Positions 11,101-33,751 of a DNA stretch of 64,000 bases are shown in pieces (the stretch's first letter is position 1; every line of letters starts with the position of its first letter). The stretch is taken from NCBI GenBank assembly GCA_000002445.1, contig CP000068.1, positions 672,001 through 736,000 of the forward strand. Direction: 5' to 3'. This DNA comes from Trypanosoma brucei (lineage: Eukaryota). Both the position numbers and the translations under genes were made by a program. Below the pieces are notes generated by a model, which saw only the letters and a list, made by a program, of their open reading frames with translations, was not told the origin of the DNA and did not search any database.

Positions 11101-11222
11101 ATTTTTGTTGTATTTCCGCATTTGAACGGAATACAGCAGATGGGGCGAGAAGCCTCCCACCCCGGACTCTCCAAAAGATGTCAATTGGCAATCCTTTTTT
11201 TTTGATTTTTGTTATTCGTTTA

Positions 11223-13636: not shown

Positions 13637-13720
13637 GGTGTGTGCCTGTACGAGTGCTAGATAAAAAGCTCTCAGTACTTGTCGTCTTGGCCCCCATGTA
13701 TAAACTGAGATGGCTGTTAT

Positions 13721-15394: not shown

Positions 15395-15460
15395 ATCAGG
15401 GGTGGACTCCCCGTGGTGGCGCGCGTACCTGGTGCACTCACCAGTGTTGCAGACCAGAAC

Positions 15461-16066: not shown

Positions 16067-16235
16067 GACGCTGCTGATCCCTGTGCTGTATGATGCCGTA
16101 GCCGGAGCAAAGCAGTGTTCCCCATGAAAGGAACGCCGCTGGCTCTTGGCTTCCCCCGATGATACGGGGTACTGGACCCTGGCACCACGTGGAGGTGGCC
16201 GGCATCGCCAGGGGCATTGTGAGAATTAATCCCAC
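15873..16235 (-). CDS. Retroelement ORF fragment: N-terminal leader with 2A-like self-processing motif DVEENPGP
   Basis: Translation ...ISSIIRSKMLLSGDVEENPGPSLRG. A D-x-E-x-NPGP 2A-like motif is what I recall from the N-terminus of trypanosomatid L1Tc/ingi elements. Confidence 0.6.
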   Translation of the reverse strand: MGLILTMPLAMPATSTWCQGPVPRIIGGSQEPAAFLSWGTLLCSGYGIIQHRDQQRLAGTPFFICRPLGTCQRAISSIIRSKMLLSGDVEENPGPSLRGMQWNCAGAISRKEISTPQNPC

Positions 16236-16620
16236 GCCACCACCCCTTGCTTGGAATGCGTCTCTTCAGGGTCCCTCGGCACGTTTTTTTTTTGTGGCGC
16301 CCCATTCCGTCGCGTTACTCAGTAAGTGGTGATATAACTGTAGTCACTTCAGATGCTTCCATGTAGCTGCGCGTTTTTCTTCGGTACTTTTTGGTTGGCA
16401 CGCTTATCTTCTGCCTGTTTCACTGCACTGCGAGAATCTGCGTGCTTTGTTGTAATTTTTGTACGCCACCCTCTGTCAATGCGATTGTTCCTAAAGTGTG
16501 GAGAGGCTTCGTTGCACGTGTGTCGTGCGAACGCTCAGTGCAACCACGCGCCTGAAAAGTCTTTCATGCTTCTAGACTTTGGTGATCCTATGCAGGGGGT
16601 TTGCTCCAGTTCTGCTTCCG

Positions 16621-17480: not shown

Positions 17481-18856
17481 TTTTGTCCCGCAACGATCGT
17501 GGAGCGGTAAAAAGCAAGGCGCTGCCATGGCGCCGCTGCGGGAGTGCGCCGTTGCGCGCTGTCTGGCACGCTCGTGGTGAATAGCGCGCGCTCATGAGCG
17601 CGTGAGGCCTTCTATTGTTCCGGCACCCCGCTACGCTGATACCAGCTGAATTCAGGGTTAGGAGCACCCATCAGCATGTCAAATGCTGCGGCGAGGTGGT
17701 GGGGAAAGTCTCTCCAGTTGGGGCTCCATCAGTTACAAGCTACCCGCTTACAGCGGCTGACTCCGTATAGAAAATTATCACTGCGTTTCCGCGCCGCGTT
17801 GGAAGCGTTGCCAACAGACATGGAGACGTCAAGTCTCTCCCAGATTCAGACAAAAAATCGAAAAAAAGAACAGCCAGGCTAAAAAAAAAAAAATTGGCAC
17901 ATTAATAGATAGGAGATAGGAGATAAATGCTGTCAACAATACACTCCATGTTAAACATTTCCTTCTCCACCCAGAAGAGGTGGGTAAAATACCAACGTTG
18001 CCCCTAACGACCCTATATGGGGGTGGCACCAACCGTGCAGTTGAAACCAATATCAACTTGATGGGAAGAGCCTTCCCTGAAATCGATATCTTAAAGAGTA
18101 AAAGGCTGTCGAGGCCGTACACGAGACTTACCAACGCAGCTAGTGTTGTCTCGTTTTATTCCGTGTCTCCCATCAATGCGAGATGTTCACATATGACATT
18201 CGATGCCACACTATTGACCGGTGGACGGTGCGAGATTGCATCACCACAGCCCTTCCCTCAATAAGTACACCAAGTCCAATACAAACAAGATAATGAAGCA
18301 CACCTTGCCTTTCCACATCACGGCCGATAGCGTTTGGTACCCAGTTTTCTTTCGATATAGCGAATTAAAGAAAGTAGCACCATCGTTGACCAGCACAAAA
18401 CGATCAGGAAGTTACAAAGACAGAATCAACTAAACAGCCCAAAAACGACAAAGTTCCTTATTTTCACATACAGCACAACCCAAAGAAAAGCACCCCTACT
18501 ACGTTTCCAGGAGCAGCAGAGGTTTGTTGCCGCCTACCGCTGTCAAAAGCATTCCATGTTATAATTTGTTTGCCGCGCTTGGTCTCGTGATGCTGAGTGA
18601 TTGTGCCTGTGTTTGTGGTTTCACCCCCTCTTGTCACGCCTTCCGCGGTTGGTGTGATTCCATTTGTGTTTGTTTCATGTGTTTTGTTTCCCTCACTACA
18701 TTGTGTGGTGAGGTTTGCTACTCTTATGATGAGTGCGCCTTGTGCCGCGTGCGTGTGTAGTGCTCATTTACCACTTGCTGCTTTCCCTTAACCTATTTCT
18801 GGATGAAAGAGACTTTACTCTTGTTTTTACCCACGTTCAAGCCGACACGGATAACA

Positions 18857-19207
18857 ATGGCCACCTGCCCTAAACACCTGTTCGGGAAGTACCATCTAAA
18901 GAGTTTTAATGGCAAAAGCGCCTTGGAGGGCGAACTGGCCGGTGTGACACTGGAGCTTGGTGAAGAAGACGGTCGTGTCACAGTACGCGCGAAGGCGGGA
19001 AATGCGATGAGTGGTGTGTTGAAGTATGAAGGTGGGATGCTCACCGGTCCCTTGATGTCTACAATGATGATGCCTCCCCCTGCTGTCTTGAAAGTAGAAC
19101 GAACCCTCGTGTCCGGTTTTTCCAGCGGTATGCATGCGCTCCGTGAAGGCTCTTCTCTTACGCTTTCGCATAAGACAGACACGATGGTGTTTGAGGCCGT
19201 GGAGTAA
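18857..19207 (+). CDS. Array gene C, copy 0 (diverged edge copy): 117-aa soluble protein with FABP/calycin-like N-terminal motif
   Basis: MATCPKHLFGKYHLKSFNGKSALEGELAGVTLELGEEDGRVTVRAKAGNAMSGVLKYEGGMLTG... A polypyrimidine tract and AG lie immediately upstream of this ATG. The listed 134-aa ORF starts 54 nt further upstream, inside the acceptor region. Confidence 0.6.
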   Translation: MATCPKHLFGKYHLKSFNGKSALEGELAGVTLELGEEDGRVTVRAKAGNAMSGVLKYEGGMLTGPLMSTMMMPPPAVLKVERTLVSGFSSGMHALREGSSLTLSHKTDTMVFEAVE

Positions 19208-20333
19208 ACTTGTTTCTCGACATGCAGTTACCCTTTTATTTTCTACTTGTGTTGCCACTACACTTTCGTGTTTGTGGTCGGTGTTAGCGAACACTACCTT
19301 TGTTTACCACTTAGTGTTATGTTATTTATTTTTGAAATCGGGTTATTATTTTTATTTTTTTTTTCCAGGGTGTAGATATTTGAACCCTAATAAACGTCAA
19401 CGTTTTGTTAATTTATACGGGGGTACGTGTTTTTTTATTTGTTATCGAGGTATAGGCCTTCTGTCATGGTGACTACTGGACATTTTCGCTTCCTCTTTGC
19501 TGGATGCTCCCTGAATACTCAACGTAATAGTATGAAGAAAAGTGAGATGGTAGGCGGGGAATAAGTGTATGTAAGGAGTATATATTGTACGGACATCGGT
19601 AGTGGTGATGATGTTGAGATTCTCTCTCTTAAAGGTTATATCTTTGTATCAACTGATTCGGTACATAAGATCAGATTTTAAATACTATCTTCTATTTATT
19701 ATTTATTATGGAGTGTGATAATTAAAATGTAAGGGCAAATTATCTAACTGCTTATGATCAGTTGATTAGGTAGCGAGTAGTTTAGATAGTATCTTATATT
19801 TAGGAGGTGAGGTGTCCATCTGTAGTAATGGAAGAAATTGTTTGTAAGGATCGACGGCAGTGCAGATAAAACAAATATCGAAGTATATATATATGTATAG
19901 AAGTTTGGCTCAGCGACAGAGATACAATATTCTGCAAAAATAAGATATAAATATTTCATCATTACCCTACCATGCACAGATTATCGATGTGTATCCAACA
20001 AGGTGGGCGCGTGCGACTCCTTCAAGCATTCCATGTTATAATTTGTTTGCCGCGCTTGGTCTCGTGATGCTGAGCGATTGTGCCTGTGTTTGTGGTTTCA
20101 CCCCCTCTTGTCACGCCTTCCGCGGTTGGTGTGATTCCATTTGTGTTTGTTTCATGTGTTTTGTTTCCCTCACTACATTGTGTGGTGAGGTTTGCTACTC
20201 TTATGATGAGTGCGCCTTGTGCCGCGTGCGTGTGTAGTGCTCATTTACCACTTGCTGCTTTCCCTTAACCTATTTCTGGATGAAAGAGACTTTACTCTTG
20301 TTTTTACCCACGTTCAAGCCGACACGGATAACA

Positions 20334-20684
20334 ATGGCCACCTGCCCTAAACACCTGTTCGGGAAGTACCATCTAAAGAGTTTTAATGGCAAAAGCGCCT
20401 TGGAGGGCGAACTGGCCGGTGTGACACTGGAGCTTGGTGAAGAAGACGGTCGTGTCACAGTACGCGCGAAGGCGGGAAATGCGATGAATGGTGTGTTGAA
20501 GTATGAAGGTGGGATGCTCACCGGTCCCTTGATATCCACTATTATGCTCTCGCCCCCTGCTTTGATGGAGGTGGAGAGTGCTTTCAGTTCTGGATTTTCC
20601 AGCGGTATGCATGCGCTCCGTGAAGGCTCTTCTCTTACGCTTTCGCATAAGACAGACACGATGGTGTTTGAGGCCGTGGAGTAA
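20334..20684 (+). CDS. Array gene C, copy 1: 117-aa FABP/calycin-like protein
   Basis: Same as 18857..19207 except for the variable patch GPLISTIMLSPPALMEVESAFSSG. Confidence 0.6.
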   Translation: MATCPKHLFGKYHLKSFNGKSALEGELAGVTLELGEEDGRVTVRAKAGNAMNGVLKYEGGMLTGPLISTIMLSPPALMEVESAFSSGFSSGMHALREGSSLTLSHKTDTMVFEAVE

Positions 20685-20984
20685 AGGTGACGGGCATACG
20701 TTAGTGTGTGTTTTGTTTATACGGTGATGTAAAAAATGACTTAAATTTTCATCTGTTTTTCGGTTATATTGTAGGTGCATATTCAACTTTCTCAATACCT
20801 AATGGCGGTACTATTAGTATTATTTTTTTTAAATACTTTCCTTGTTCACGAATATGTGATATCTACTGATTCGTATGAGCACTTTTGTTTTTTTATGCGT
20901 CTTCCTGTCTTCGCTAGCGTTTTGTTGTTGATGTATTTCTTGATTTGCTTTTCGTTTCTTTCTTTATGCTCTATACCTTTTTTT

Positions 20985-21042
20985 GCCTTTCCCTTGTATC
21001 CGCATATTCTCGTCCTCTGGTCTCTACTCCGCCATATTTATT
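20985..21042 (+). promoter_or_regulatory. Polypyrimidine tract / probable trans-splice acceptor region upstream of array gene A (recurs every 4182 bp)
   Basis: cctttttttgcctttcccttgtatccgcatattctcgtcctctggtctctactccgcc, then AG dinucleotides before the ATG at 21111. Confidence 0.4.
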
Positions 21043-21110
21043 CATGTAGTGCATGTAGTACTGGTTTGCATCCCGTGGAAACCTCTGCTTTTGTGTAGCA
21101 CCCGCGATTT

Positions 21111-22541
21111 ATGGCATCAGACAATGAGTCCACTGTCGAGGTGAGGGAGGCTCGTGACACCGAGGAGTACGATGCGCAGGCTGCTGCTCGTGGGCTGTGT
21201 GACAAGGCATGTGACATAAAGAGCCTTCTACATGGGCACGTTGAGTCGACGCGTGCCCTCGAAAGGGTTGTTGGGGAATTTTGCACTCGCGACATCGCTG
21301 AAGAGGATGCCTTCCGGAAAATCTCTCTCGACGTTATGCATGCCGAAATGCGGGCGCTACGGGACCTTCACTACGTTGCATTTTCCCAGCGGTGGGCAGA
21401 GGTAGAAAAGGGCTCCGCTGCAGAGGAGGTCACCAGCCTACCTTCAGCGGATAGGAGTGTTGGAAGTTGCGTGTCCCACCTTCTGACCTCGCTTTGTGAG
21501 GGAAAGCCTGATGCAACTTTTAGCCTTTCAGAGTATTTTGGTGTCGCTGACGTGCTTATGGAATGGCGCTCGTTAACTCCAGCATCACAGGAACAGTTGG
21601 ATATTCTTCTTCTGTCAATAACCAGGAGCGTGGAGGACATTTCATCATGTGTCCTGCTGCTGAATGGGGTTTTATATACACCATCTGATTCATTTGATTG
21701 TTGTGAACTCACTCGACGGGAGCTCACCGCGATAATTGGAAGTGGGGGACCCGCTTCCGCGGAAGAGGCACTTGTTGGATGGCTTAATTTTATTGTGAGA
21801 CGCTCGTTACTCAACCAGACCCTTCTCCAGAGGCTGATGAGTTCGACCATCGAGTTTCGGAGAAGTGATCTTTGCCTACAGGGCGACGGCGCAGACGTGC
21901 TGGTTGTAGTCGACCACAGGCGGTTGTTGAACTCCGCTGTCTTTCGTGGGTTTTTCTTTTCTGGGGAGTTGCGTGGTGTAGAGGCTATTGGGGCGCAGGT
22001 GAACTTGATGTCAGTATTATTTGCAGGCAACGGCAGCGGAGATCAGCTTGACATAGAGAAGTGTATCGCCGACATTTTCCGCGCTTTATGGGAGCAGCAG
22101 GAACTGCTTTCATGTAAGTGGAAGAACGTTACTGTGACCCTCGCTGTTCAAGCCAGGAAGGACGTCGGAGCCGGCGCTCAAACCAAGTTGATGGACTTCG
22201 TTGTGCTCGATCTTCGCCCCCTGTCGCCGAACATTCCTTTTCAGTGGCACTTTACATGGGGCGAGGTCTGTGCACTAGGCCAGCTCAGTACGAATGACGG
22301 AGATAGAGCACGACCCCTGGACATTCCTGTTTTCAAGACGACTCGTGTAGCTGTAGCCTCTCTGGGGCCTTATGATAAACTTTCACGCATAATGTTCCCT
22401 TCGATTAACGAGTATTTACGTCTTACGCGGAAAGAGCCACCATCTGTAGCCCCAGTCGCCTACGCTGCCGTCGCGGCGGCGCTTGTCGTCGGGGGATTTA
22501 TTGTTGGAAGCTGCATACTCGGTTCCCGGCGAAGACGATGA
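21111..22541 (+). CDS. Array gene A, copy 1: 476-aa tail-anchored membrane protein, no recognisable domain
   Basis: No N-terminal signal peptide (MASDNESTVEVREARD...). A single C-terminal hydrophobic helix (VAPVAYAAVAAALVVGGFIVGSCILG) is followed only by SRRRR-stop. A strong polypyrimidine tract lies upstream (20985..21042). Confidence 0.75.
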   Translation: MASDNESTVEVREARDTEEYDAQAAARGLCDKACDIKSLLHGHVESTRALERVVGEFCTRDIAEEDAFRKISLDVMHAEMRALRDLHYVAFSQRWAEVEKGSAAEEVTSLPSADRSVGSCVSHLLTSLCEGKPDATFSLSEYFGVADVLMEWRSLTPASQEQLDILLLSITRSVEDISSCVLLLNGVLYTPSDSFDCCELTRRELTAIIGSGGPASAEEALVGWLNFIVRRSLLNQTLLQRLMSSTIEFRRSDLCLQGDGADVLVVVDHRRLLNSAVFRGFFFSGELRGVEAIGAQVNLMSVLFAGNGSGDQLDIEKCIADIFRALWEQQELLSCKWKNVTVTLAVQARKDVGAGAQTKLMDFVVLDLRPLSPNIPFQWHFTWGEVCALGQLSTNDGDRARPLDIPVFKTTRVAVASLGPYDKLSRIMFPSINEYLRLTRKEPPSVAPVAYAAVAAALVVGGFIVGSCILGSRRRR

Positions 22542-22789
22542 GCAGTATCCGCCTCTGCTTTTTTCTGTTCATCTTGTTTTATTGACTTTAGAGCCATATT
22601 TAGGCTCCGCTATGCGTCCTTGTTGGTTAGAGGTTTAGTATTGTTGTACCTGACTCTGTGACTGATGGTGGGTGCCGCACCGTATCTGCGGCATGGGGTG
22701 CTTGCGTGAGTGAGGATCCACACTTATTTGACCGCTGTTTGCTATGAAATGTTTCCCTCCTTTCCTACTTGTAGCCAAGTTAATATTGC

Positions 22790-24130
22790 ATGATGGATAT
22801 TACTGCGTTGTGCGGAAACTATCGGTTGTGTGAGATTGACGGAAAGACGTGCTCCGAGGAAGTGTTTATTGCTCTAGAGGCGTCTGGTGGTGGTGTTGAG
22901 GTTGTTGCCATGGTGGGCAACACCCTGTGCGGGCGCGCTTGTGTGAATGGGGACAGGATTAGTGCGAACCTTACTAGCACTATGAGGCAGGTGGAAGAAG
23001 AGATGATGAGGATTGAAAGCCTGCTGACATGCGGGTTCAAGGCCGGGTTTACCTGTGAGCAGAGTGACATCATACTGACGCTGACTGGAGAGCAGAGTGT
23101 CTTCACATTGGAGCGTGATGTATTATGTGATATAAAGTTTGGTGAGTATACCCTCTGTGAGTTCAATGGGGAACCCGTGGCTTCGGACGAGATGGTGCTC
23201 ACCCTGCTCCCCGCTGTGGTAGATGGTGCCCTTGTGATTGCACAGTTCAAAAACTCTCTCCGCGGGGAGCTGGAGCTTCGCAATGGTCGTCTCCGCGGCG
23301 TTATTGCGTCGACGATGTGCGAGGTGGATGGTTCTTTGAAGTGCGCGGAGGAAGCGTTTTTGTCAGCTACCAGGGGTGATGGCATAAAAGTGTGCTCTGA
23401 CGACCACCGGCTTGTGCTTAAGGACGACCACAATGCGTTCGTTTATGTGCTGCGTCCAGCAATTCCAGAGAACCTTGTGAGCGAGTACTTACTGAAGAGC
23501 TTCAATGGCGAGTCTGTAGAGGCTGAGAGGCGTGTGATGTTCCGCTTTTCCCAATCAGCTGACGGTGTCGGTACGGATGTTGTGGCGAGTGTTGCCAATA
23601 CGATCAGGGGGAAGGTAAGAGTGGATGACGGAAAGTTAAAATCGAAGGTGATGTCATCACGAAGGAAAGGGAATGAGTCGGAGATGCGATTTGAGAATGC
23701 TCTGAAGGAAGGGTTCAAGGCTGGGTTTTCGTGGTCTCTGGACGACACGGTGCTGACTCTTGAGTGCGACGGGAACCGCCTCATCTTCGTGAAAGTTGCC
23801 GCTGTGCCGTGCGAAAATGGTAGGCCGGGGTATATTGGTGATAAGGTTTCAAGATGCTTTAAGGCCCACGACGATGCTCGAGTGTACCGTATCATCAACA
23901 CTGTGGAATCGAAGTGGGCATTTTACAATGACACGACCGAATACAATTTTAATGTGTCAGTGACTTTTGGGCGGAAATCAAAGGTACGCGGTCTGGCCAA
24001 CACGTCAATTGAGACAAATGAGGAAGGCTTGACGGTTGCCAGCGTGTCAGTCGCCCCTGGTGCGACGGAGATGTTCGTTGCTGGGGATGTAAACGGGTAC
24101 AAGTGCTCCTATGACGCAGTGCACCAGTAG
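22790..24130 (+). CDS. Array gene B, copy 1: 446-aa protein built of ~4 tandem FABP/calycin-like domains (~110 aa each)
   Basis: The internal repeats start CGNYRLCEIDGK, FGEYTLCEFNGE, SEYLLKSFNGE, plus a diverged fourth. The first and third repeats end with the motifs RIESLLTCGFKAGFTCEQSDIILTLTGEQ and RFENALKEGFKAGFSWSLDDTVLTLECDG. The start motifs are the same G-x-Y-x-L-x-S/E-F/I-N-G signature as gene C. Confidence 0.75.
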   Translation: MMDITALCGNYRLCEIDGKTCSEEVFIALEASGGGVEVVAMVGNTLCGRACVNGDRISANLTSTMRQVEEEMMRIESLLTCGFKAGFTCEQSDIILTLTGEQSVFTLERDVLCDIKFGEYTLCEFNGEPVASDEMVLTLLPAVVDGALVIAQFKNSLRGELELRNGRLRGVIASTMCEVDGSLKCAEEAFLSATRGDGIKVCSDDHRLVLKDDHNAFVYVLRPAIPENLVSEYLLKSFNGESVEAERRVMFRFSQSADGVGTDVVASVANTIRGKVRVDDGKLKSKVMSSRRKGNESEMRFENALKEGFKAGFSWSLDDTVLTLECDGNRLIFVKVAAVPCENGRPGYIGDKVSRCFKAHDDARVYRIINTVESKWAFYNDTTEYNFNVSVTFGRKSKVRGLANTSIETNEEGLTVASVSVAPGATEMFVAGDVNGYKCSYDAVHQ

Positions 24131-24515
24131 CCGACATTGCGTTGAGTGTTGATCCGGATGTAAGATACACATATGTATGCGGAGGTGGGCGCGTGCGACT
24201 CCTTCAAGCATTCCATGTTATAATTTGTTTGCCGCGCTTGGTCTCGTGATGCTGAGCGATTGTGCCTGTGTTTGTGGTTTCACCCCCTCTTGTCACGCCT
24301 TCCGCGGTTGGTGTGATTCCATTTGTGTTTGTTTCATGTGTTTTGTTTCCCTCACTACATTGTGTGGTGAGGTTTGCTACTCTTATGATGAGTGCGCCTT
24401 GTGCCGCGTGCGTGTGTAGTGCTCATTTACCACTTGCTGCTTTCCCTTAACCTATTTCTGGATGAAAGAGACTTTACTCTTGTTTTTACCCACGTTCAAG
24501 CCGACACGGATAACA

Positions 24516-24866
24516 ATGGCCACCTGCCCTAAACACCTGTTCGGGAAGTACCATCTAGAGAGTTTTAATGGCAAAAGCGCCTTGGAGGGCGAACTGGCCG
24601 GTGTGACACTGGAGCTTGGTGAAGAAGACGGTCGTGTCACAGTACGCGCGAAGGCGGGAAATGCGATGAATGGTGTGTTGAAGTATGAAGGTGGGATGCT
24701 CACCGGCGTCTTGATATCCACTATTATGCTCTCGCCCCCTGCTTTGATGGAGGTGGAGAGTGCTTTCAGTTCTGGATTTTCCAGCGGTATGCATGCGCTC
24801 CGTGAAGGCTCTTCTCTTACGCTTTCGCATAAGACAGACACGATGGTGTTTGAGGCCGTGGAGTAA
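24516..24866 (+). CDS. Array gene C, copy 2: 117-aa FABP/calycin-like protein
   Basis: Identical to copy 3. Differs from copy 1 at K->E (HLESFNG) and P->V (TGVLIST). Confidence 0.6.
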   Translation: MATCPKHLFGKYHLESFNGKSALEGELAGVTLELGEEDGRVTVRAKAGNAMNGVLKYEGGMLTGVLISTIMLSPPALMEVESAFSSGFSSGMHALREGSSLTLSHKTDTMVFEAVE

Positions 24867-25292
24867 AGGTGACGGGCATACGTTAGTGTGTGTTTTGTTT
24901 ATACGGTGATGTAAAAAATGACTTAAATTTTCATCTGTTTTTCGGTAATATTGTAGGTGCATATTCAACTCTTTGAATTTCTAATGGCGGTACTATTAGT
25001 ATTATTTTTTTTAAATACTTTCCTTGTTCACGAATATGTGATATCTACTGATTCGTATGAGCACTTTTGTTTTTTTATGCGTCTTCCTGTCTTCGCTAGC
25101 GTTTTGTTGTTGATGTATTTCTTGATTTGCTTTTCGTTTCTTTCTTTATGCTCTATACCTTTTTTTGCCTTTCCCTTGTATCCGCATATTCTCGTCCTCT
25201 GGTCTCTACTCCGCCATATTTATTCATGTAGTGCATGTAGTACTGGTTTGCATCCCGTGGAAACCTCTGCTTTTGTGTAGCACCCGCGATTT

Positions 25293-26723
25293 ATGGCATC
25301 AGACAATGAGTCCACTGTCGAGGTGAGGGAGGCTCGTGACACCGAGGAGTACGATGCGCAGGCTGCTGCTCGTGGGCTGTGTGACAAGGCATGTGACATA
25401 AAGAGCCTTCTACATGGGCACGTTGAGTCGACGCGTGCCCTCGAAAGGGTTGTTGGGGAATTTTGCACTCGCGACATCGCTGAAGAGGATGCCTTCCGGA
25501 AAATCTCTCTCGACGTTATGCATGCCGAAATGCGGGCGCTACGGGACCTTCACTACGTTGCATTTTCCCAGCGGTGGGCAGAGGTAGAAAAGGGCTCCGC
25601 TGCAGAGGAGGTCACCAGCCTACCTTCAGCGGATAGGAGTGTTGGAAGTTGCGTGTCCCACCTTCTGGCCTCGCTTTGTGAGGGAAAGCCTGATGCAACT
25701 TTTAGCCTTTCAGAGTATTTTGGTGTCGCTGACGTGCTTATGGAATGGCGCTCGTTAACTCCAGCATCACAGGAACAGTTGGATATTCTTCTTCTGTCAA
25801 TAACCAGGAGCGTGGAGGACATTTCATCATGTGTCCTGCTGCTGAATGGGGTTTTATATACACCATCTGATTCATTTGATTGTTGTGAACTCACTCGACG
25901 GGAGCTCACCGCGATAATTGGAAGTGGGGGACCCGCTTCCGCGGAAGAGGCACTTGTTGGATGGCTTAATTTTATTGTGAGACGCTCGTTACTCAACCAG
26001 ACCCTTCTCCAGAGGCTGATGAGTTCGACCATCGAGTTTCGGAGAAGTGATCTTTGCCTACAGGGCGACGGCGCAGACGTGCTGGTTGTAGTCGACCACA
26101 GGCGGTTGTTGAACTCCGCTGTCTTTCGTGGGTTTTTCTTTTCTGGGGAGTTGCGTGGTGTAGAGGCTATTGGGGCGCAGGTGAACTTGATGTCAGTATT
26201 ATTTGCAGGCAACGGCAGCGGAGATCAGCTTGACATAGAGAAGTGTATCGCCGACATTTTCCGCGCTTTATGGGAGCAGCAGGAACTGCTTTCATGTAAG
26301 TGGAAGAACGTTACTGTGACCCTCGCTGTTCAAGCCAGGAAGGACGTCGGAGCCGGCGCTCAAACCAAGTTGATGGACTTCGTTGTGCTCGATCTTCGCC
26401 CCCTGTCGCCGAACATTCCTTTTCAGTGGCACTTTACATGGGGCGAGGTCTGTGCACTAGGCCAGCTCAGTACGAATGACGGAGATAGAGCACGACCCCT
26501 GGACATTCCTGTTTTCAAGACGACTCGTGTAGCTGTAGCCTCTCTGGGGCCTTATGATAAACTTTCACGCATAATGTTCCCTTCGATTAACGAGTATTTA
26601 CGTCTTACGCGGAAAGAGCCACCATCTGTAGCCCCAGTCGCCTACGCTGCCGTCGCGGCGGCGCTTGTCGTCGGGGGATTTATTGTTGGAAGCTGCATAC
26701 TCGGTTCCCGGCGAAGACGATGA
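25293..26723 (+). CDS. Array gene A, copy 2 (T->A at HLLASLCEG relative to copy 1)
   Basis: Exact 4182-bp periodic copy. Confidence 0.75.
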   Translation: MASDNESTVEVREARDTEEYDAQAAARGLCDKACDIKSLLHGHVESTRALERVVGEFCTRDIAEEDAFRKISLDVMHAEMRALRDLHYVAFSQRWAEVEKGSAAEEVTSLPSADRSVGSCVSHLLASLCEGKPDATFSLSEYFGVADVLMEWRSLTPASQEQLDILLLSITRSVEDISSCVLLLNGVLYTPSDSFDCCELTRRELTAIIGSGGPASAEEALVGWLNFIVRRSLLNQTLLQRLMSSTIEFRRSDLCLQGDGADVLVVVDHRRLLNSAVFRGFFFSGELRGVEAIGAQVNLMSVLFAGNGSGDQLDIEKCIADIFRALWEQQELLSCKWKNVTVTLAVQARKDVGAGAQTKLMDFVVLDLRPLSPNIPFQWHFTWGEVCALGQLSTNDGDRARPLDIPVFKTTRVAVASLGPYDKLSRIMFPSINEYLRLTRKEPPSVAPVAYAAVAAALVVGGFIVGSCILGSRRRR

Positions 26724-26971
26724 GCAGTATCCGCCTCTGCTTTTTTCTGTTCATCTTGTTTTATTGACTTTAGAGCCATATTTAGGCTCCGCTATGCGTC
26801 CTTGTTGGTTAGAGGTTTAGTATTGTTGTACCTGACTCTGTGACTGATGGTGGGTGCCGCACCGTATCTGCGGCATGGGGTGCTTGCGTGAGTGAGGATC
26901 CACACTTATTTGACCGCTGTTTGCTATGAAATGTTTCCCTCCTTTCCTACTTGTAGCCAAGTTAATATTGC

Positions 26972-28312
26972 ATGATGGATATTACTGCGTTGTGCGGAAA
27001 CTATCGGTTGTGTGAGATTGACGGAAAGACGTGCTCCGAGGAAGTGTTTATTGCTCTAGAGGCGTCTGGTGGTGGTGTTGAGGTTGTTGCCATGGTGGGC
27101 AACACCCTGTGCGGGCGCGCTTGTGTGAATGGGGACAGGATTAGTGCGAACCTTACTAGCACTATGAGGCAGGTGGAAGAAGAGATGATGAGGATTGAAA
27201 GCCTGCTGACATGCGGGTTCAAGGCCGGGTTTACCTGTGAGCAGAGTGACATCATACTGACGCTGACTGGAGAGCAGAGTGTCTTCACATTGGAGCGTGA
27301 TGTATTATGTGATATAAAGTTTGGTGAGTATACCCTCTGTGAGTTCAATGGGGAACCCGTGGCTTCGGACGAGATGGTGCTCACCCTGCTCCCCGCTGTG
27401 GTAGATGGTGCCCTTGTGATTGCACAGTTCAAAAACTCTCTCCGCGGGGAGCTGGAGCTTCGCAATGGTCGTCTCCGCGGCGTTATTGCGTCGACGATGT
27501 GCGAGGTGGATGGTTCTTTGAAGTGCGCGGAGGAAGCGTTTTTGTCAGCTACCAGGGGTGATGGCATAAAAGTGTGCTCTGACGACCACCGGCTTGTGCT
27601 TAAGGACGACCACAATGCGTTCGTTTATGTGCTGCGTCCAGCAATTCCAGAGAACCTTGTGAGCGAGTACTTACTGAAGAGCTTCAATGGCGAGTCTGTA
27701 GAGGCTGAGAGGCGTGTGATGTTCCGCTTTTCCCAATCAGCTGACGGTGTCGGTACGGATGTTGTGGCGAGTGTTGCCAATACGATCAGGGGGAAGGTAA
27801 GAGTGGATGACGGAAAGTTAAAATCGAAGGTGATGTCATCACGAAGGAAAGGGAATGAGTCGGAGATGCGATTTGAGAATGCTCTGAAGGAAGGGTTCAA
27901 GGCTGGGTTTTCGTGGTCTCTGGACGACACGGTGCTGACTCTTGAGTGCGACGGGAACCGCCTCATCTTCGTGAAAGTTGCCGCTGTGCCGTGCGAAAAT
28001 GGTAGGCCGGGGTATATTGGTGATAAGGTTTCAAGATGCTTTAAGGCCCACGACGATGCTCGAGTGTACCGTATCATCAACACTGTGGAATCGAAGTGGG
28101 CATTTTACAATGACACGACCGAATACAATTTTAATGTGTCAGTGACTTTTGGGCGGAAATCAAAGGTACGCGGTCTGGCCAACACGTCAATTGAGACAAA
28201 TGAGGAAGGCTTGACGGTTGCCAGCGTGTCAGTCGCCCCTGGTGCGACGGAGATGTTCGTTGCTGGGGATGTAAACGGGTACAAGTGCTCCTATGACGCA
28301 GTGCACCAGTAG
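26972..28312 (+). CDS. Array gene B, copy 2
   Basis: Identical protein, 4182-bp period. Confidence 0.75.
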   Translation: MMDITALCGNYRLCEIDGKTCSEEVFIALEASGGGVEVVAMVGNTLCGRACVNGDRISANLTSTMRQVEEEMMRIESLLTCGFKAGFTCEQSDIILTLTGEQSVFTLERDVLCDIKFGEYTLCEFNGEPVASDEMVLTLLPAVVDGALVIAQFKNSLRGELELRNGRLRGVIASTMCEVDGSLKCAEEAFLSATRGDGIKVCSDDHRLVLKDDHNAFVYVLRPAIPENLVSEYLLKSFNGESVEAERRVMFRFSQSADGVGTDVVASVANTIRGKVRVDDGKLKSKVMSSRRKGNESEMRFENALKEGFKAGFSWSLDDTVLTLECDGNRLIFVKVAAVPCENGRPGYIGDKVSRCFKAHDDARVYRIINTVESKWAFYNDTTEYNFNVSVTFGRKSKVRGLANTSIETNEEGLTVASVSVAPGATEMFVAGDVNGYKCSYDAVHQ

Positions 28313-28697
28313 CCGACATTGCGTTGAGTGTTGATCCGGATGTAAGATACACATATGTATGCGGAGGTGGGCGCGTGCGACTCCTTCAAGCATTCCATGT
28401 TATAATTTGTTTGCCGCGCTTGGTCTCGTGATGCTGAGCGATTGTGCCTGTGTTTGTGGTTTCACCCCCTCTTGTCACGCCTTCCGCGGTTGGTGTGATT
28501 CCATTTGTGTTTGTTTCATGTGTTTTGTTTCCCTCACTACATTGTGTGGTGAGGTTTGCTACTCTTATGATGAGTGCGCCTTGTGCCGCGTGCGTGTGTA
28601 GTGCTCATTTACCACTTGCTGCTTTCCCTTAACCTATTTCTGGATGAAAGAGACTTTACTCTTGTTTTTACCCACGTTCAAGCCGACACGGATAACA

Positions 28698-29048
28698 ATG
28701 GCCACCTGCCCTAAACACCTGTTCGGGAAGTACCATCTAGAGAGTTTTAATGGCAAAAGCGCCTTGGAGGGCGAACTGGCCGGTGTGACACTGGAGCTTG
28801 GTGAAGAAGACGGTCGTGTCACAGTACGCGCGAAGGCGGGAAATGCGATGAATGGTGTGTTGAAGTATGAAGGTGGGATGCTCACCGGCGTCTTGATATC
28901 CACTATTATGCTCTCGCCCCCTGCTTTGATGGAGGTGGAGAGTGCTTTCAGTTCTGGATTTTCCAGCGGTATGCATGCGCTCCGTGAAGGCTCTTCTCTT
29001 ACGCTTTCGCATAAGACAGACACGATGGTGTTTGAGGCCGTGGAGTAA
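28698..29048 (+). CDS. Array gene C, copy 3: 117-aa FABP/calycin-like protein
   Basis: Identical to copy 2. Confidence 0.6.
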   Translation: MATCPKHLFGKYHLESFNGKSALEGELAGVTLELGEEDGRVTVRAKAGNAMNGVLKYEGGMLTGVLISTIMLSPPALMEVESAFSSGFSSGMHALREGSSLTLSHKTDTMVFEAVE

Positions 29049-29474
29049 AGGTGACGGGCATACGTTAGTGTGTGTTTTGTTTATACGGTGATGTAAAAAA
29101 TGACTTAAATTTTCATCTGTTTTTCGGTAATATTGTAGGTGCATATTCAACTCTTTGAATTTCTAATGGCGGTACTATTAGTATTATTTTTTTTAAATAC
29201 TTTCCTTGTTCACGAATATGTGATATCTACTGATTCGTATGAGCACTTTTGTTTTTTTATGCGTCTTCCTGTCTTCGCTAGCGTTTTGTTGTTGATGTAT
29301 TTCTTGATTTGCTTTTCGTTTCTTTCTTTATGCTCTATACCTTTTTTTGCCTTTCCCTTGTATCCGCATATTCTCGTCCTCTGGTCTCTACTCCGCCATA
29401 TTTATTCATGTAGTGCATGTAGTACTGGTTTGCATCCCGTGGAAACCTCTGCTTTTGTGTAGCACCCGCGATTT

Positions 29475-30905
29475 ATGGCATCAGACAATGAGTCCACTGT
29501 CGAGGTGAGGGAGGCTCGTGACACCGAGGAGTACGATGCGCAGGCTGCTGCTCGTGGGCTGTGTGACAAGGCATGTGACATAAAGAGCCTTCTACATGGG
29601 CACGTTGAGTCGACGCGTGCCCTCGAAAGGGTTGTTGGGGAATTTTGCACTCGCGACATCGCTGAAGAGGATGCCTTCCGGAAAATCTCTCTCGACGTTA
29701 TGCATGCCGAAATGCGGGCGCTACGGGACCTTCACTACGTTGCATTTTCCCAGCGGTGGGCAGAGGTAGAAAAGGGCTCCGCTGCAGAGGAGGTCACCAG
29801 CCTACCTTCAGCGGATAGGAGTGTTGGAAGTTGCGTGTCCCACCTTCTGGCCTCGCTTTGTGAGGGAAAGCCTGATGCAACTTTTAGCCTTTCAGAGTAT
29901 TTTGGTGTCGCTGACGTGCTTATGGAATGGCGCTCGTTAACTCCAGCATCACAGGAACAGTTGGATATTCTTCTTCTGTCAATAACCAGGAGCGTGGAGG
30001 ACATTTCATCATGTGTCCTGCTGCTGAATGGGGTTTTATATACACCATCTGATTCATTTGATTGTTGTGAACTCACTCGACGGGAGCTCACCGCGATAAT
30101 TGGAAGTGGGGGACCCGCTTCCGCGGAAGAGGCACTTGTTGGATGGCTTAATTTTATTGTGAGACGCTCGTTACTCAACCAGACCCTTCTCCAGAGGCTG
30201 ATGAGTTCGACCATCGAGTTTCGGAGAAGTGATCTTTGCCTACAGGGCGACGGCGCAGACGTGCTGGTTGTAGTCGACCACAGGCGGTTGTTGAACTCCG
30301 CTGTCTTTCGTGGGTTTTTCTTTTCTGGGGAGTTGCGTGGTGTAGAGGCTATTGGGGCGCAGGTGAACTTGATGTCAGTATTATTTGCAGGCAACGGCAG
30401 CGGAGATCAGCTTGACATAGAGAAGTGTATCGCCGACATTTTCCGCGCTTTATGGGAGCAGCAGGAACTGCTTTCATGTAAGTGGAAGAACGTTACTGTG
30501 ACCCTCGCTGTTCAAGCCAGGAAGGACGTCGGAGCCGGCGCTCAAACCAAGTTGATGGACTTCGTTGTGCTCGATCTTCGCCCCCTGTCGCCGAACATTC
30601 CTTTTCAGTGGCACTTTACATGGGGCGAGGTCTGTGCACTAGGCCAGCTCAGTACGAATGACGGAGATAGAGCACGACCCCTGGACATTCCTGTTTTCAA
30701 GACGACTCGTGTAGCTGTAGCCTCTCTGGGGCCTTATGATAAACTTTCACGCATAATGTTCCCTTCGATTAACGAGTATTTACGTCTTACGCGGAAAGAG
30801 CCACCATCTGTAGCCCCAGTCGCCTACGCTGCCGTCGCGGCGGCGCTTGTCGTCGGGGGATTTATTGTTGGAAGCTGCATACTCGGTTCCCGGCGAAGAC
30901 GATGA
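29475..30905 (+). CDS. Array gene A, copy 3
   Basis: Identical to copy 2. Confidence 0.75.
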   Translation: MASDNESTVEVREARDTEEYDAQAAARGLCDKACDIKSLLHGHVESTRALERVVGEFCTRDIAEEDAFRKISLDVMHAEMRALRDLHYVAFSQRWAEVEKGSAAEEVTSLPSADRSVGSCVSHLLASLCEGKPDATFSLSEYFGVADVLMEWRSLTPASQEQLDILLLSITRSVEDISSCVLLLNGVLYTPSDSFDCCELTRRELTAIIGSGGPASAEEALVGWLNFIVRRSLLNQTLLQRLMSSTIEFRRSDLCLQGDGADVLVVVDHRRLLNSAVFRGFFFSGELRGVEAIGAQVNLMSVLFAGNGSGDQLDIEKCIADIFRALWEQQELLSCKWKNVTVTLAVQARKDVGAGAQTKLMDFVVLDLRPLSPNIPFQWHFTWGEVCALGQLSTNDGDRARPLDIPVFKTTRVAVASLGPYDKLSRIMFPSINEYLRLTRKEPPSVAPVAYAAVAAALVVGGFIVGSCILGSRRRR

Positions 30906-31153
30906 GCAGTATCCGCCTCTGCTTTTTTCTGTTCATCTTGTTTTATTGACTTTAGAGCCATATTTAGGCTCCGCTATGCGTCCTTGTTGGTTAGAGGTTT
31001 AGTATTGTTGTACCTGACTCTGTGACTGATGGTGGGTGCCGCACCGTATCTGCGGCATGGGGTGCTTGCGTGAGTGAGGATCCACACTTATTTGACCGCT
31101 GTTTGCTATGAAATGTTTCCCTCCTTTCCTACTTGTAGCCAAGTTAATATTGC

Positions 31154-32494
31154 ATGATGGATATTACTGCGTTGTGCGGAAACTATCGGTTGTGTGAGAT
31201 TGACGGAAAGACGTGCTCCGAGGAAGTGTTTATTGCTCTAGAGGCGTCTGGTGGTGGTGTTGAGGTTGTTGCCATGGTGGGCAACACCCTGTGCGGGCGC
31301 GCTTGTGTGAATGGGGACAGGATTAGTGCGAACCTTACTAGCACTATGAGGCAGGTGGAAGAAGAGATGATGAGGATTGAAAGCCTGCTGACATGCGGGT
31401 TCAAGGCCGGGTTTACCTGTGAGCAGAGTGACATCATACTGACGCTGACTGGAGAGCAGAGTGTCTTCACATTGGAGCGTGATGTATTATGTGATATAAA
31501 GTTTGGTGAGTATACCCTCTGTGAGTTCAATGGGGAACCCGTGGCTTCGGACGAGATGGTGCTCACCCTGCTCCCCGCTGTGGTAGATGGTGCCCTTGTG
31601 ATTGCACAGTTCAAAAACTCTCTCCGCGGGGAGCTGGAGCTTCGCAATGGTCGTCTCCGCGGCGTTATTGCGTCGACGATGTGCGAGGTGGATGGTTCTT
31701 TGAAGTGCGCGGAGGAAGCGTTTTTGTCAGCTACCAGGGGTGATGGCATAAAAGTGTGCTCTGACGACCACCGGCTTGTGCTTAAGGACGACCACAATGC
31801 GTTCGTTTATGTGCTGCGTCCAGCAATTCCAGAGAACCTTGTGAGCGAGTACTTACTGAAGAGCTTCAATGGCGAGTCTGTAGAGGCTGAGAGGCGTGTG
31901 ATGTTCCGCTTTTCCCAATCAGCTGACGGTGTCGGTACGGATGTTGTGGCGAGTGTTGCCAATACGATCAGGGGGAAGGTAAGAGTGGATGACGGAAAGT
32001 TAAAATCGAAGGTGATGTCATCACGAAGGAAAGGGAATGAGTCGGAGATGCGATTTGAGAATGCTCTGAAGGAAGGGTTCAAGGCTGGGTTTTCGTGGTC
32101 TCTGGACGACACGGTGCTGACTCTTGAGTGCGACGGGAACCGCCTCATCTTCGTGAAAGTTGCCGCTGTGCCGTGCGAAAATGGTAGGCCGGGGTATATT
32201 GGTGATAAGGTTTCAAGATGCTTTAAGGCCCACGACGATGCTCGAGTGTACCGTATCATCAACACTGTGGAATCGAAGTGGGCATTTTACAATGACACGA
32301 CCGAATACAATTTTAATGTGTCAGTGACTTTTGGGCGGAAATCAAAGGTACGCGGTCTGGCCAACACGTCAATTGAGACAAATGAGGAAGGCTTGACGGT
32401 TGCCAGCGTGTCAGTCGCCCCTGGTGCGACGGAGATGTTCGTTGCTGGGGATGTAAACGGGTACAAGTGCTCCTATGACGCAGTGCACCAGTAG
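31154..32494 (+). CDS. Array gene B, copy 3
   Basis: Identical protein, 4182-bp period. Confidence 0.75.
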   Translation: MMDITALCGNYRLCEIDGKTCSEEVFIALEASGGGVEVVAMVGNTLCGRACVNGDRISANLTSTMRQVEEEMMRIESLLTCGFKAGFTCEQSDIILTLTGEQSVFTLERDVLCDIKFGEYTLCEFNGEPVASDEMVLTLLPAVVDGALVIAQFKNSLRGELELRNGRLRGVIASTMCEVDGSLKCAEEAFLSATRGDGIKVCSDDHRLVLKDDHNAFVYVLRPAIPENLVSEYLLKSFNGESVEAERRVMFRFSQSADGVGTDVVASVANTIRGKVRVDDGKLKSKVMSSRRKGNESEMRFENALKEGFKAGFSWSLDDTVLTLECDGNRLIFVKVAAVPCENGRPGYIGDKVSRCFKAHDDARVYRIINTVESKWAFYNDTTEYNFNVSVTFGRKSKVRGLANTSIETNEEGLTVASVSVAPGATEMFVAGDVNGYKCSYDAVHQ

Positions 32495-32879
32495 CCGACA
32501 TTGCGTTGAGTGTTGATCCGGATGTAAGATACACATATGTATGCGGAGGTGGGCGCGTGCGACTCCTTCAAGCATTCCATGTTATAATTTGTTTGCCGCG
32601 CTTGGTCTCGTGATGCTGAGCGATTGTGCCTGTGTTTGTGGTTTCACCCCCTCTTGTCACGCCTTCCGCGGTTGGTGTGATTCCATTTGTGTTTGTTTCA
32701 TGTGTTTTGTTTCCCTCACTACATTGTGTGGTGAGGTTTGCTACTCTTATGATGAGTGCGCCTTGTGCCGCGTGCGTGTGTAGTGCTCATTTACCACTTG
32801 CTGCTTTCCCTTAACCTATTTCTGGATGAAAGAGACTTTACTCTTGTTTTTACCCACGTTCAAGCCGACACGGATAACA

Positions 32880-33230
32880 ATGGCCACCTGCCCTAAACAC
32901 CTGTTCGGGAAGTACCATCTAAAGAGTTTTAATGGCAAAAGCGCCTTGGAGGGCGAACTGGCCGGTGTGACACTGGAGCTTGGTGAAGAAGACGGTCGTG
33001 TCACAGTACGCGCGAAGGCGGGAAATGCGATGAATGGTGTGTTGAAGTATGAAGGTGGGATGCTCACCGGTCCCTTGATGTCCACAAGAATGATGCCGCC
33101 CCCTGCTTTGATGGAGGTGGAGAGTGCTTTCAGTTCTGGATTTTCCAGCGGTATGCATGCGCTCCGTGAAGGCTCTTCTCTTACGCTTTCGCATAAGACA
33201 GACACGATGGTGTTTGAGGCCGTGGAGTAA
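32880..33230 (+). CDS. Array gene C, copy 4 (edge copy, mosaic variable patch): 117-aa FABP/calycin-like protein
   Basis: GPLMSTRMMPPPALMEVESAFSSG. The left part resembles copy 0 and the right part the internal copies. It is followed by the same tail sequence as copy 0. Confidence 0.6.
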   Translation: MATCPKHLFGKYHLKSFNGKSALEGELAGVTLELGEEDGRVTVRAKAGNAMNGVLKYEGGMLTGPLMSTRMMPPPALMEVESAFSSGFSSGMHALREGSSLTLSHKTDTMVFEAVE

Positions 33231-33751
33231 ACTTGTTTCTCGACATGCAGTTACCCTTTTATTTTCTACTTGTGTTGCCACTACACTTTCGTGTTTGTGG
33301 TCGGTGTTAGCGAACACTACCTTTGTTTACCACTTAGTGTTATGTTATTTATTTTTGAAATCGGGTTATTATTTTTATTTTTTTTTCCAGGGTGTAGATA
33401 TTTGAACCCTAATAAACGTAAACGTTTTGTTAATTTATACGGGGGTACGTGTTTTTTTATTTGTTATCGAGGTATAGGCCTTCTGTCATGGTGACTACTG
33501 GACATTTTCGCTTCCTCTTTGCTGGATGCTCCCTGAATACTCAACGTAATAGTATGAAGAAAAGTGAGATGGTAGGCGGGGAATAAGTATGAGCGAAAAC
33601 CATTAGTTATTGTGGTTATATATATATATATTTATTGTTTTTGTCTGTGTCTACCTTTTTTTTCCACAAAGAAATAATATATATTTTTTCGCCTCTTGTT
33701 TTTGGTAATTTGTAAGTTGCTACTTTATTATATATTTGGGAAGTAAATATT

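What the first reader, a model, noticed from the sequence alone, without database searches (positions are those of the whole stretch)
18551..33590. Near-identical 4182-bp tandem array carrying a three-gene module (C-A-B) of uncharacterised proteins
Three complete units differ by only one or two nucleotides over more than 4 kb. That level of identity implies ongoing homogenisation (concerted evolution) or very recent amplification. Each unit carries three different genes in the same order: a small FABP-like protein, a tail-anchored membrane protein and a four-domain FABP-like protein. In trypanosomatids, tandem amplification is the usual way to raise expression of abundant proteins such as tubulins and HSP70. 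A co-amplified three-gene cassette therefore suggests the products are needed together and at high dose. I do not recognise this as a known family.
Basis: seen in the sequence. Interest (0 to 1): 0.8.

Follow-up and report, generated by a model that had tools for sequence, protein, structure and literature searches.

The report
Trypanosoma brucei META gene array
The repeat is real, but it is the already annotated META1/META2 gene cluster on Trypanosoma brucei chromosome 5, amplified by recombination between flanking META1 copies; the one fresh lead is that the uncharacterised middle gene is predicted to have a Cdc123-like ATP-grasp fold.

Summary
A 4182-bp tandem array runs from 20001 to 33231: three full units plus a 685-bp partial fourth. 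Units 2 and 3 are identical; unit 1 differs from them at 11 positions. A solo copy of the small gene lies upstream at 18547-19566.

The window is T. brucei brucei TREU927 chromosome 5, genes Tb927.5.2160-2260, and the locus is already published (Toh et al. 2021).
- Gene C is a META1 homologue (Pfam META).
- Gene B is a META2 homologue (three META domains plus DUF1935).
- Neither shows a sequence link to FABPs.
- Gene A has no Pfam match. It lies between META2 and META1 in Leishmania major, Novymonas and every Trypanosoma species examined.

The likely ancestral layout is C-A-B-C, seen as a single unit in T. theileri (T. grayi's contig shows A-B-C). Unit counts are 1 in the T. b. gambiense assembly, 2 in T. 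b. equiperdum, 3 here, and at least 4 in T. vivax. That pattern fits unequal recombination between the flanking C copies, with dosage as the payoff: Tb927.5.2260 ranked tenth in a table of peak transcript abundance.

Two details may be new. A is predicted to have a Cdc123-like ATP-grasp fold with a tail anchor. The META1 copies keep a position-specific divergent 24-codon segment.

Verdict: already known, low interest.

The parts
18547..19566 (+). Solo upstream META1-like copy (C-alpha, Tb927.5.2160 by order) with its own 3' flank. The 116-aa CDS is 18857-19207; the mechanical ORF starts at 18803.
   Evidence: Self-BLAST; Pfam META E 1.3e-14; translation; gene numbering from PMC7952579.
19567..20000 (.). 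Unique AT-rich spacer between the solo C copy and the array. Also present in T. b. gambiense; absent from the T. b. equiperdum assembly.
20001..24182 (+). Array unit 1: C-beta CDS 20334-20684, A CDS 21111-22541, B CDS 22790-24130.
   Evidence: Differs from units 2 and 3 at 11 positions.
24183..28364 (+). Array unit 2: C-beta CDS 24516-24866, A CDS 25293-26723, B CDS 26972-28312.
   Evidence: Identical to unit 3 over 4182 bp.
28365..32546 (+). Array unit 3: C-beta CDS 28698-29048, A CDS 29475-30905, B CDS 31154-32494.
32547..33588 (+). Partial fourth unit (32547-33231) carrying the terminal META1-like copy (C-gamma, CDS 32880-33230), followed by a 3' flank shared with the solo copy (33231-33588).
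25293..26723 (+). Representative A gene (Tb927.5.2210 by order). 476 aa: long N-terminal helix, predicted Cdc123-like ATP-grasp core, C-terminal tail anchor.
26972..28312 (+). Representative B gene (META2 homologue, Tb927.5.2220). Three META domains plus a C-terminal DUF1935 (SMP-1-like) domain.
   Evidence: Pfam. PDB 2fe0 SMP-1 E 1e-23. 33% identity to L. major META2, E 1.6e-64.
33752..35191 (+). Leucine-rich-repeat protein immediately downstream. It occupies the same position as the LRR gene that follows META1 on L. major chromosome 17; Leishmania LRR17 is described as lying near META1.
   Evidence: Pfam LRR_6; synteny; PMC10577668.
11223..16305 (-). Degenerate ingi-type non-LTR retroposon in the divergent strand-switch region upstream of the cluster.
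   Evidence: Pfam Exo_endo_phos_2, RVT_1, RNase_H and zf-C2H2 on successive interrupted ORFs. The same element lies upstream in gambiense and equiperdum.

Best explanation
This is the T. brucei version of the trypanosomatid META cluster. It sits at the head of a polycistronic transcription unit, just after a divergent strand switch. The ancestral Trypanosoma layout was META1 - A - META2 - META1 (C-A-B-C).

The two C copies are direct repeats of about 0.5-0.7 kb. Unequal homologous recombination between them adds or removes whole C-A-B units. That fixes the period at the C-to-C distance (4182 bp) and explains why the array ends in a lone C. Continued unequal exchange and gene conversion keep the units nearly identical.

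Trypanosomes have little gene-specific transcriptional control, so extra copies raise mRNA dose. That is the likely benefit, at least for the very abundant procyclic META1-like mRNA.

Shown: the repeat structure, the gene identities, the synteny, and the differences in unit number between assemblies. Inferred: the recombination mechanism and selection for dose.
For: - Structure.
- Identity: exact matches to TREU927 proteins AAZ11333/36/39 (A) and AAZ11334/37/40 (B); Pfam META and DUF1935; C is 42.7% identical to L. major META1 (E 6e-20) and B 33% identical to META2 (E 1.6e-64).
- Literature: PMC7952579 lists Tb927.5.2160/2170/2200/2230/2260 (116 aa) and Tb927.5.2190/2220/2250 (446 aa) at the start of a transcription unit on chromosome 5, syntenic with Leishmania meta-1.
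- Ancestral single unit: T. theileri has C-A-B-C with the flanking C copies 95% identical over 460 bp. T. grayi has A-B-C-LRR, with the contig starting 286 bp before A, so an upstream C was not visible.
- Variable unit number: gambiense DAL972 has 1 A-B unit, equiperdum 2, TREU927 3. T. vivax has at least 4 units of about 4025 bp at 99.97% identity.
- Recombination between C copies: in equiperdum, C-alpha is joined directly to the internal C-to-A flank, and the equivalent of window 19209-20685 is missing.
- Dose: Tb927.5.2260 ranked tenth in a table of peak transcript abundance, maximum in log-phase procyclics. Tb927.5.2160 rises during differentiation to procyclic forms.
Against: - Unit counts come from assemblies, not long reads spanning the array. 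DAL972 may be collapsed, and the perfect identity of units 2 and 3 could owe something to assembly.
- No expression or dosage data were examined here for A or B.
- The ancestral order is inferred from a few species. Leishmaniinae have B-A-C instead.
Confidence: 0.85

Rival explanations
1. Co-amplification reflects selection for joint, stoichiometric high expression of three proteins that work together.
For: - META2, A and META1 are neighbours in Trypanosoma (C-A-B-C), L. major, Novymonas and a metagenomic relative (B-A-C), with A always in the middle despite the reordering.
- One EukProt gene model fuses a META2-like region to an A-like region.
- Copies of C, A and B fall together after ZC3H45 RNAi.
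Against: - Gene order is broadly conserved in trypanosomatids whatever the function. The downstream LRR, acyltransferase and Brr2-like helicase genes are equally syntenic.
- Phytomonas keeps A at this position with no META gene within 10 kb. Two distant A homologues also show no META gene in the flanks examined: L017 by called-gene Pfam only, and L012 also by tblastn, with only ~430 bp of downstream sequence.
- Copy numbers are not stoichiometric: five C against three A and three B.
- A and B must ride along when the flanking C copies recombine.
- The fused gene model may be a gene-calling artefact.
Confidence: 0.25
2. The array, or its unit count, is an assembly artefact.
For: Units 2 and 3 are 100% identical over 4182 bp. 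The gambiense assembly shows only one unit. Short-read Logan contigs break inside the repeat.
Against: - Unit 1 carries 11 private differences, and both ends of the array have unique flanks.
- Independent assemblies of equiperdum and T. vivax also show multi-unit arrays.
- The three C types sit in the same relative positions in three T. brucei subspecies.
Confidence: 0.07
3. C and B are FABP/lipocalin-like lipid carriers.
For: Puri et al. modelled META1 on HslJ and reported a fold shared with HslJ and MxiM and a predicted hydrophobic cavity. Mutating cavity residues altered secretion of acid phosphatase (PMC3270026).
Against: No FABP or lipocalin family was matched. The sequence matches are to META/HslJ and DUF1935/SMP-1. 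The structures of C and B were not modelled here.
Confidence: 0.05

Closest known systems
Leishmania META cluster on chromosome 17 (META1, META2, LRR17; Uliana, Ramos and colleagues)
   Same: Same families in the same genomic position: strand switch, then META2, A and META1, then an LRR protein, an acyltransferase and a Brr2-like helicase. C is 42.7% identical to L. major META1 and B 33% identical to META2, with the same three-META-plus-DUF1935 architecture.
   Different: In Leishmania each gene is single-copy and the order is B-A-C. T. brucei has C-A-B units repeated three times plus two extra C copies. Leishmania META1 and META2 are more highly expressed in metacyclic than in procyclic promastigotes. 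The T. brucei transcripts did not change during metacyclogenesis, and C copies rise on differentiation to, or peak in, procyclic forms.
Tandem gene arrays of trypanosomatids (tubulin, HSP70, histones) used for gene dosage
   Same: Head-to-tail, near-identical units inside a polycistronic unit, with unit number differing between assemblies. The abundance table lists alpha and beta tubulin and histones H2B and H3 as multi-copy genes with very abundant transcripts.
   Different: The unit carries three unrelated genes, and it is bracketed by copies of one of them. That bracketing is enough to explain why the other two are co-amplified.
Cdc123 (D123 family, R2K clade of ATP-grasp proteins; eIF2 assembly factor)
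   Different: None of 28 family members matches Pfam D123, and the family profile finds no PDB sequence. There is no invariant lysine. A also has a long N-terminal helix and a C-terminal membrane anchor. Classical Cdc123 orthologues were reported in kinetoplastids (PMC4431377), which suggests A is a separate family.
Bacterial HslJ / META domain proteins
   Same: C matches Pfam META over its full length, and HslJ (2kts) is its best, though weak, PDB sequence match.
   Different: C is a eukaryotic cytosolic-type protein with no signal peptide evident. The proposed bacterial origin by gene transfer is disputed (PMC3270026 against PMC4413820).

Membership tests
META domain family (Pfam PF03724; Leishmania META1 type) | Full-length match to the META profile above the curated cut-off, in a protein of about 110-120 aa | tested here: met
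   54.9 bits against a cut-off of 24, profile positions 5-108 of 109. 42.7% identity to L. major META1, E 6e-20.
META domain family (Pfam PF03724; Leishmania META1 type) | Syntenic position next to META2 and upstream of the LRR17-type gene | tested here: met
   Compare (L. major) (window). PMC7952579 also calls it syntenic.
META domain family (Pfam PF03724; Leishmania META1 type) | Metacyclic-stage up-regulation and localisation at the flagellar pocket | not testable with these tools
   In the literature, the T. brucei transcripts do not change during metacyclogenesis, and C copies rise on differentiation to, or peak in, procyclic forms. Localisation is unknown to me.
META2 type (three META domains plus calpain-like DUF1935) | Three META repeats followed by a C-terminal DUF1935/SMP-1-like domain, about 445 aa | tested here: met
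   Three META stretches (95.1 bits) and DUF1935 at residues 342-444 (117.4 bits). SMP-1 2fe0 E 1e-23. 33% identity to L. major META2 over 440 aa.
   META and DUF1935 were the only Pfam families at E <= 0.01. PDB sequence searches returned HslJ as the top, weak hit for C (E 0.19) and SMP-1 plus a second DUF1935-type protein (1r75) for B.
Cdc123 / R2K ATP-grasp clade (for protein A) | ATP-grasp fold closest to Cdc123 | tested here: met
   [not shown]
Cdc123 / R2K ATP-grasp clade (for protein A) | Sequence-level membership (Pfam D123, or a profile hit to Cdc123) | tested here: not met
   None of 28 members matches D123 at E <= 1. The family profile finds no Cdc123 chain in the PDB at E <= 10.
Cdc123 / R2K ATP-grasp clade (for protein A) | Two conserved lysines in the RAGNYA domain and the Mg/ATP-binding acidic residues and Asn (PMC4431377) | tested here: inconclusive
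   The 28-sequence alignment has no invariant Lys. The invariant residues are L39, E64, G186, R279, E291, P373, W383, C387 and D422. I could not map them residue by residue onto Cdc123.
Trypanosomatid tandem dosage array | Head-to-tail near-identical units on one strand within a polycistronic unit, with unit number differing between strains | tested here: met

The most novel reading that the evidence does not exclude
Protein A (Tb927.5.2180/2210/2240; the L. major chromosome 17 orthologue lies between META2 and META1) belongs to a previously unrecognised trypanosomatid family. It would be a membrane tail-anchored, highly diverged Cdc123-like ATP-grasp protein, either an assembly chaperone or a peptide ligase, possibly a pseudoenzyme. 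It would act on or with the META1 and META2 proteins. That would explain why the three genes have stayed adjacent since Trypanosoma and Leishmania split, and it would give the long-unexplained META 'virulence' proteins a biochemical partner.
Probability: 0.15. Interest if true: 0.6.

Novelty: already known. Interest (0 to 1): 0.22.

Why it matters
The array itself adds nothing new. It is an annotated reference locus from a named family, and it behaves like other trypanosome dosage arrays.

Three points are of modest use:
- It gives a clear example of how two flanking paralogues turn the genes between them into passengers of amplification. This cautions against reading co-amplification as evidence of shared function.
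- The middle gene, unannotated across trypanosomatids, now has a testable structural assignment: a tail-anchored, Cdc123-like ATP-grasp fold.
- The META1 copies carry stable, position-specific variants of one segment (codons 82-105), and two kinds of 3' flank. Together these suggest functionally and regulatorily distinct isoforms rather than simple redundancy.

Tried and rejected
- TRF found nothing because its longest period is 500. Self-BLAST was used instead.
- The paper that tops a META1/META2 search (PMC7007551) uses 'Meta1' and 'Meta2' as names for cell clusters, so it is irrelevant.
- Word-indexed protein searches with A, B and the A-family alignment returned only Trypanosoma relatives, plus one unnamed distant Logan protein, P0061. 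Leishmania, Novymonas and Phytomonas members came only from the exhaustive HMM search, with names from exact look-ups.
- Ramos et al. 2004, the paper that describes the META cluster, is not held in the library. What it says about T. brucei could not be checked.
- The afdb50 fold library was unavailable.
- The first A model, built from 8 sequences, was weak (pLDDT 62). I did not rely on it until the 28-sequence model reproduced the Cdc123 hit with a higher score.
- No literature was found on A under Tb927.5.2180/2210/2240 beyond table entries, or under LmjF.17.0880, an identifier I guessed for the L. major orthologue.
- I considered whether the divergent META1 segment reflects purely positive selection. 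I rejected that because 7 of its 19 variable codons differ only synonymously. It looks like an old island of divergence inside flanks that have been homogenised.
- From memory, the A motif 'VVLDxRPLSP..PFxWHFTWxEV' resembles the Cdc123 motif around its Mg-binding Asp/Asn. I could not obtain a Cdc123 sequence to test this, so it is not used as evidence.
Full report
**1. The observation**

Self-BLAST of the window and a base-by-base comparison at an offset of 4182 show a perfect-register tandem array from 20001 to 33231. Full units start at 20001, 24183 and 28365. A 685-bp partial fourth unit (32547-33231) ends one base past the stop codon of the last small gene.

Units 2 and 3 are identical over all 4182 bp. 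Unit 1 differs from each at 11 positions, at offsets 375, 524-526, 764, 788-797 and 1485. Periodicity stops abruptly to the left of 20001.

It is a solo copy of the small gene with its own 3' flank. It is 95-96% identical to the array copies and 97.6% identical to the terminal copy plus flank (32570-33588). A unique AT-rich spacer follows at 19567-20000. TRF missed the array only because its longest period is 500.

Each unit carries C (116-aa CDS inside a 134-aa ORF), A (476 aa) and B (446 aa) on the + strand. C occurs five times; A and B three times each.

**2. What the genes are**

- C matches Pfam META over the full profile (54.9 bits, cut-off 24).
- B has three META stretches plus a C-terminal DUF1935 domain (117.4 bits).
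- A matches no Pfam family.
- In the PDB by sequence, C's best, weak match is HslJ (2kts). B's C-terminus matches Leishmania SMP-1 (2fe0, E 1e-23).
- No FABP or lipocalin family appears.

The A and B proteins are exact matches to T. brucei brucei TREU927 accessions: AAZ11333/36/39 for A and AAZ11334/37/40 for B, on a 1,608,198-bp contig. The window is therefore TREU927 chromosome 5.

Toh et al. 2021 (PMC7952579) describe this locus explicitly. [quoted passage not shown] These are 446-aa proteins (Tb927.5.2190, 2220, 2250) and 116-aa proteins (Tb927.5.2160, 2170, 2200, 2230, 2260), syntenic with L. major meta-1. Several copies were down-regulated after ZC3H45 RNAi. Tb927.5.2180 and Tb927.5.2240 are listed as 'hypothetical protein, conserved', which is gene A.

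Kabani et al. 2009 call Tb927.5.2160 a Meta1 homologue that is induced on differentiation to procyclic forms. In Jensen et al. 2009, Tb927.5.2260 ranked tenth in a table of peak transcript abundance, with its maximum in log-phase procyclics.

By tblastn, C is 42.7% identical to L. major META1 (E 6e-20). B is 33% identical to L. major META2 over 440 residues (E 1.6e-64).

**3. Surroundings**

Upstream, all large genes are on the minus strand:
- UPF1 at 2982-5516.
- A degenerate ingi-type retroposon at about 11.2-16.3 kb, with endonuclease, reverse transcriptase, RNase H and zinc-finger ORFs.

The array therefore heads a + strand transcription unit after a divergent strand switch, in agreement with the skew change.

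Downstream come a leucine-rich-repeat protein (33752-35191), an acyltransferase (35500-36867) and a Brr2-like helicase. Leishmania LRR17 is described as an ORF near META1 (PMC10577668). An LRR gene sits directly downstream of META1 on L. major chromosome 17, in the position matching the window's LRR gene.

**4. Comparative anatomy**

| Genome | Layout at this position |
|---|---|
| T. theileri | single C-A-B-C, flanking C copies 95% identical over 460 bp |
| T. grayi | A-B-C-LRR (contig starts 286 bp before A) |
| T. b. gambiense DAL972 | C, spacer, C-A-B-C (one unit) |
| T. b. equiperdum | C-A-B-C-A-B-C (two units) |
| T. b. brucei TREU927 (this window) | solo C, spacer, three C-A-B units, terminal C |
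| T. vivax | at least four units of about 4025 bp, 99.97% identical, running off the fetched locus |
| L. major chromosome 17 | META2 - A - META1 - LRR - acyltransferase - helicase, single-copy |
| Novymonas, and a metagenomic relative | same B-A-C order, with an extra META gene |
| Phytomonas Hart1 | A - LRR - acyltransferase - helicase; no META homologue within 10 kb by tblastn |
| Two distant A homologues | no META gene in the flanks examined (L017: called-gene Pfam only; L012: also tblastn, ~430 bp downstream) |

In equiperdum the first C is joined directly to the internal C-to-A flank. The equivalent of window 19209-20685 is missing.

**5. Mechanism**

The period equals the distance between the two C copies that bracket A-B in the single-unit layout, and the array ends in a lone C. 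Unit number differs between closely related assemblies, and one assembly shows a deletion whose ends lie in C copies.

Together these point to unequal homologous recombination between C copies as the engine of expansion and contraction. Gene conversion and repeated unequal exchange would keep the units near-identical. The same process has run separately in T. vivax: units are near-identical within that species, while its A protein is only about 50% identical to T. brucei A.

Higher dose is the plausible payoff for C, given its transcript abundance. For A and B, co-amplification follows from geometry, so by itself it is not evidence that the three products are needed together.

These steps are inferred from assemblies. 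No spanning reads were available. The exact unit number, and the perfect identity of units 2 and 3, remain open to assembly effects.

**6. Details that may be new**

*(a) Mosaic META1 copies.* Of the 31 variable nucleotides among the five C ORFs, 29 fall in codons 82-105. C1 and C2 differ at 26 positions, 25 of them within nucleotides 255-315. Seven of the 19 variable codons in this segment differ only synonymously. The segment is therefore an old island of divergence inside flanks that have been homogenised.

Three types exist:
- alpha, in the solo copy;
- beta, in the array-internal copies;
- gamma, in the terminal copy, which resembles alpha in its first half and beta in its second half.

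The same types occupy the same relative positions in gambiense and equiperdum. Alpha and gamma also share a 3' flank that differs from the beta copies' C-to-A intergenic region. This may allow differential regulation.

*(b) Protein A.* An exhaustive profile search found 47 relatives, 24 of them at E <= 1e-30. They include Leishmania (LdCL_170015800 and orthologues), Novymonas and Phytomonas. None of the 28 aligned members matches any Pfam family convincingly, and the family profile finds nothing in PDB sequences.

A also has a long N-terminal helix and a C-terminal hydrophobic anchor that is conserved in most members. The alignment has no invariant lysine, whereas two conserved lysines define the R2K/Cdc123 clade (PMC4431377). 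The invariant residues are L39, E64, G186, R279, E291, P373, W383, C387 and D422. Whether A is catalytic is therefore open. Classical Cdc123 orthologues are reported in kinetoplastids, which suggests A is a separate, very divergent family.

One EukProt gene model fuses a META2-like region to an A-like region. This may be a gene-calling artefact.

**7. Verdict**

The repeat is real and correctly delimited in substance. It is the annotated and published T. brucei META1/META2 array, homologous to the Leishmania META cluster. 'FABP-like' and 'unknown family' are wrong. 'Homogenised dosage array' is right. 'Needed together' is unproven and is not required by the data.

Novelty: already known. Interest is low. 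One modest lead is worth following: the predicted Cdc123-like, tail-anchored nature of the conserved middle gene.

Noticed in passing
[not shown]
   Followed up: partly
window codons 82-105 of the C ORFs (e.g. 19046-19117, 20523-20594, 33069-33140): 29 of the 31 variable nucleotides among the five META1-like copies cluster in one 24-codon segment. They define three types (solo, internal, terminal). The same types sit in the same relative positions in T. b. gambiense and T. b. equiperdum.
   Followed up: partly
window 19208-19566 and 33231-33588: The solo and terminal META1-like copies share a 3' flank (about 97% identical) that differs from the flank after the internal copies. The copies may therefore have different 3' UTRs and regulation.
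   Followed up: no
window about 11223-16305, minus strand: A degenerate ingi-type non-LTR retroposon (endonuclease, reverse transcriptase, RNase H and zinc-finger ORFs, frame-interrupted) lies in the strand-switch region upstream of the cluster. It is also present in gambiense and equiperdum.
   Followed up: partly
L015 (Phytomonas sp. Hart1) 1-21596: Phytomonas keeps the A gene, followed by the LRR, acyltransferase and helicase genes, but has no META1 or META2 homologue within 10 kb. This suggests loss of the META genes in this plant parasite.
   Followed up: partly
L009 (T. vivax) 1-13747: T. vivax has its own C-A-B array of at least four units of about 4025 bp at 99.97% identity. It runs off the upstream end of the fetched locus, so the total unit number is unknown.
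   Followed up: partly
L008 (T. b. equiperdum) 8914-9574 compared with window 19209-20685: The equiperdum assembly lacks the solo-copy 3' flank, the spacer and the first internal C. The alpha-type C is fused directly to the internal C-to-A flank, as expected from recombination between C copies.
   Followed up: yes
P0028 (EukProt gene model, 984 aa): A single predicted protein combines META and DUF1935 domains (N-terminal half) with an A-family domain (residues 492-948). It is either a real fusion or two adjacent genes merged by the gene caller.
   Followed up: no
window 2982-5516 (-), 37340-44068 (+), 45126-47957 (+), 49238-51478 (+), 52866-55076 (+): The flanking genes are ordinary conserved housekeeping genes: UPF1 helicase, Brr2-like DEAD/Sec63 helicase, a formin (FH2), a PCIF1_WW-domain protein and a NatC Mak10-like subunit.
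   Followed up: no
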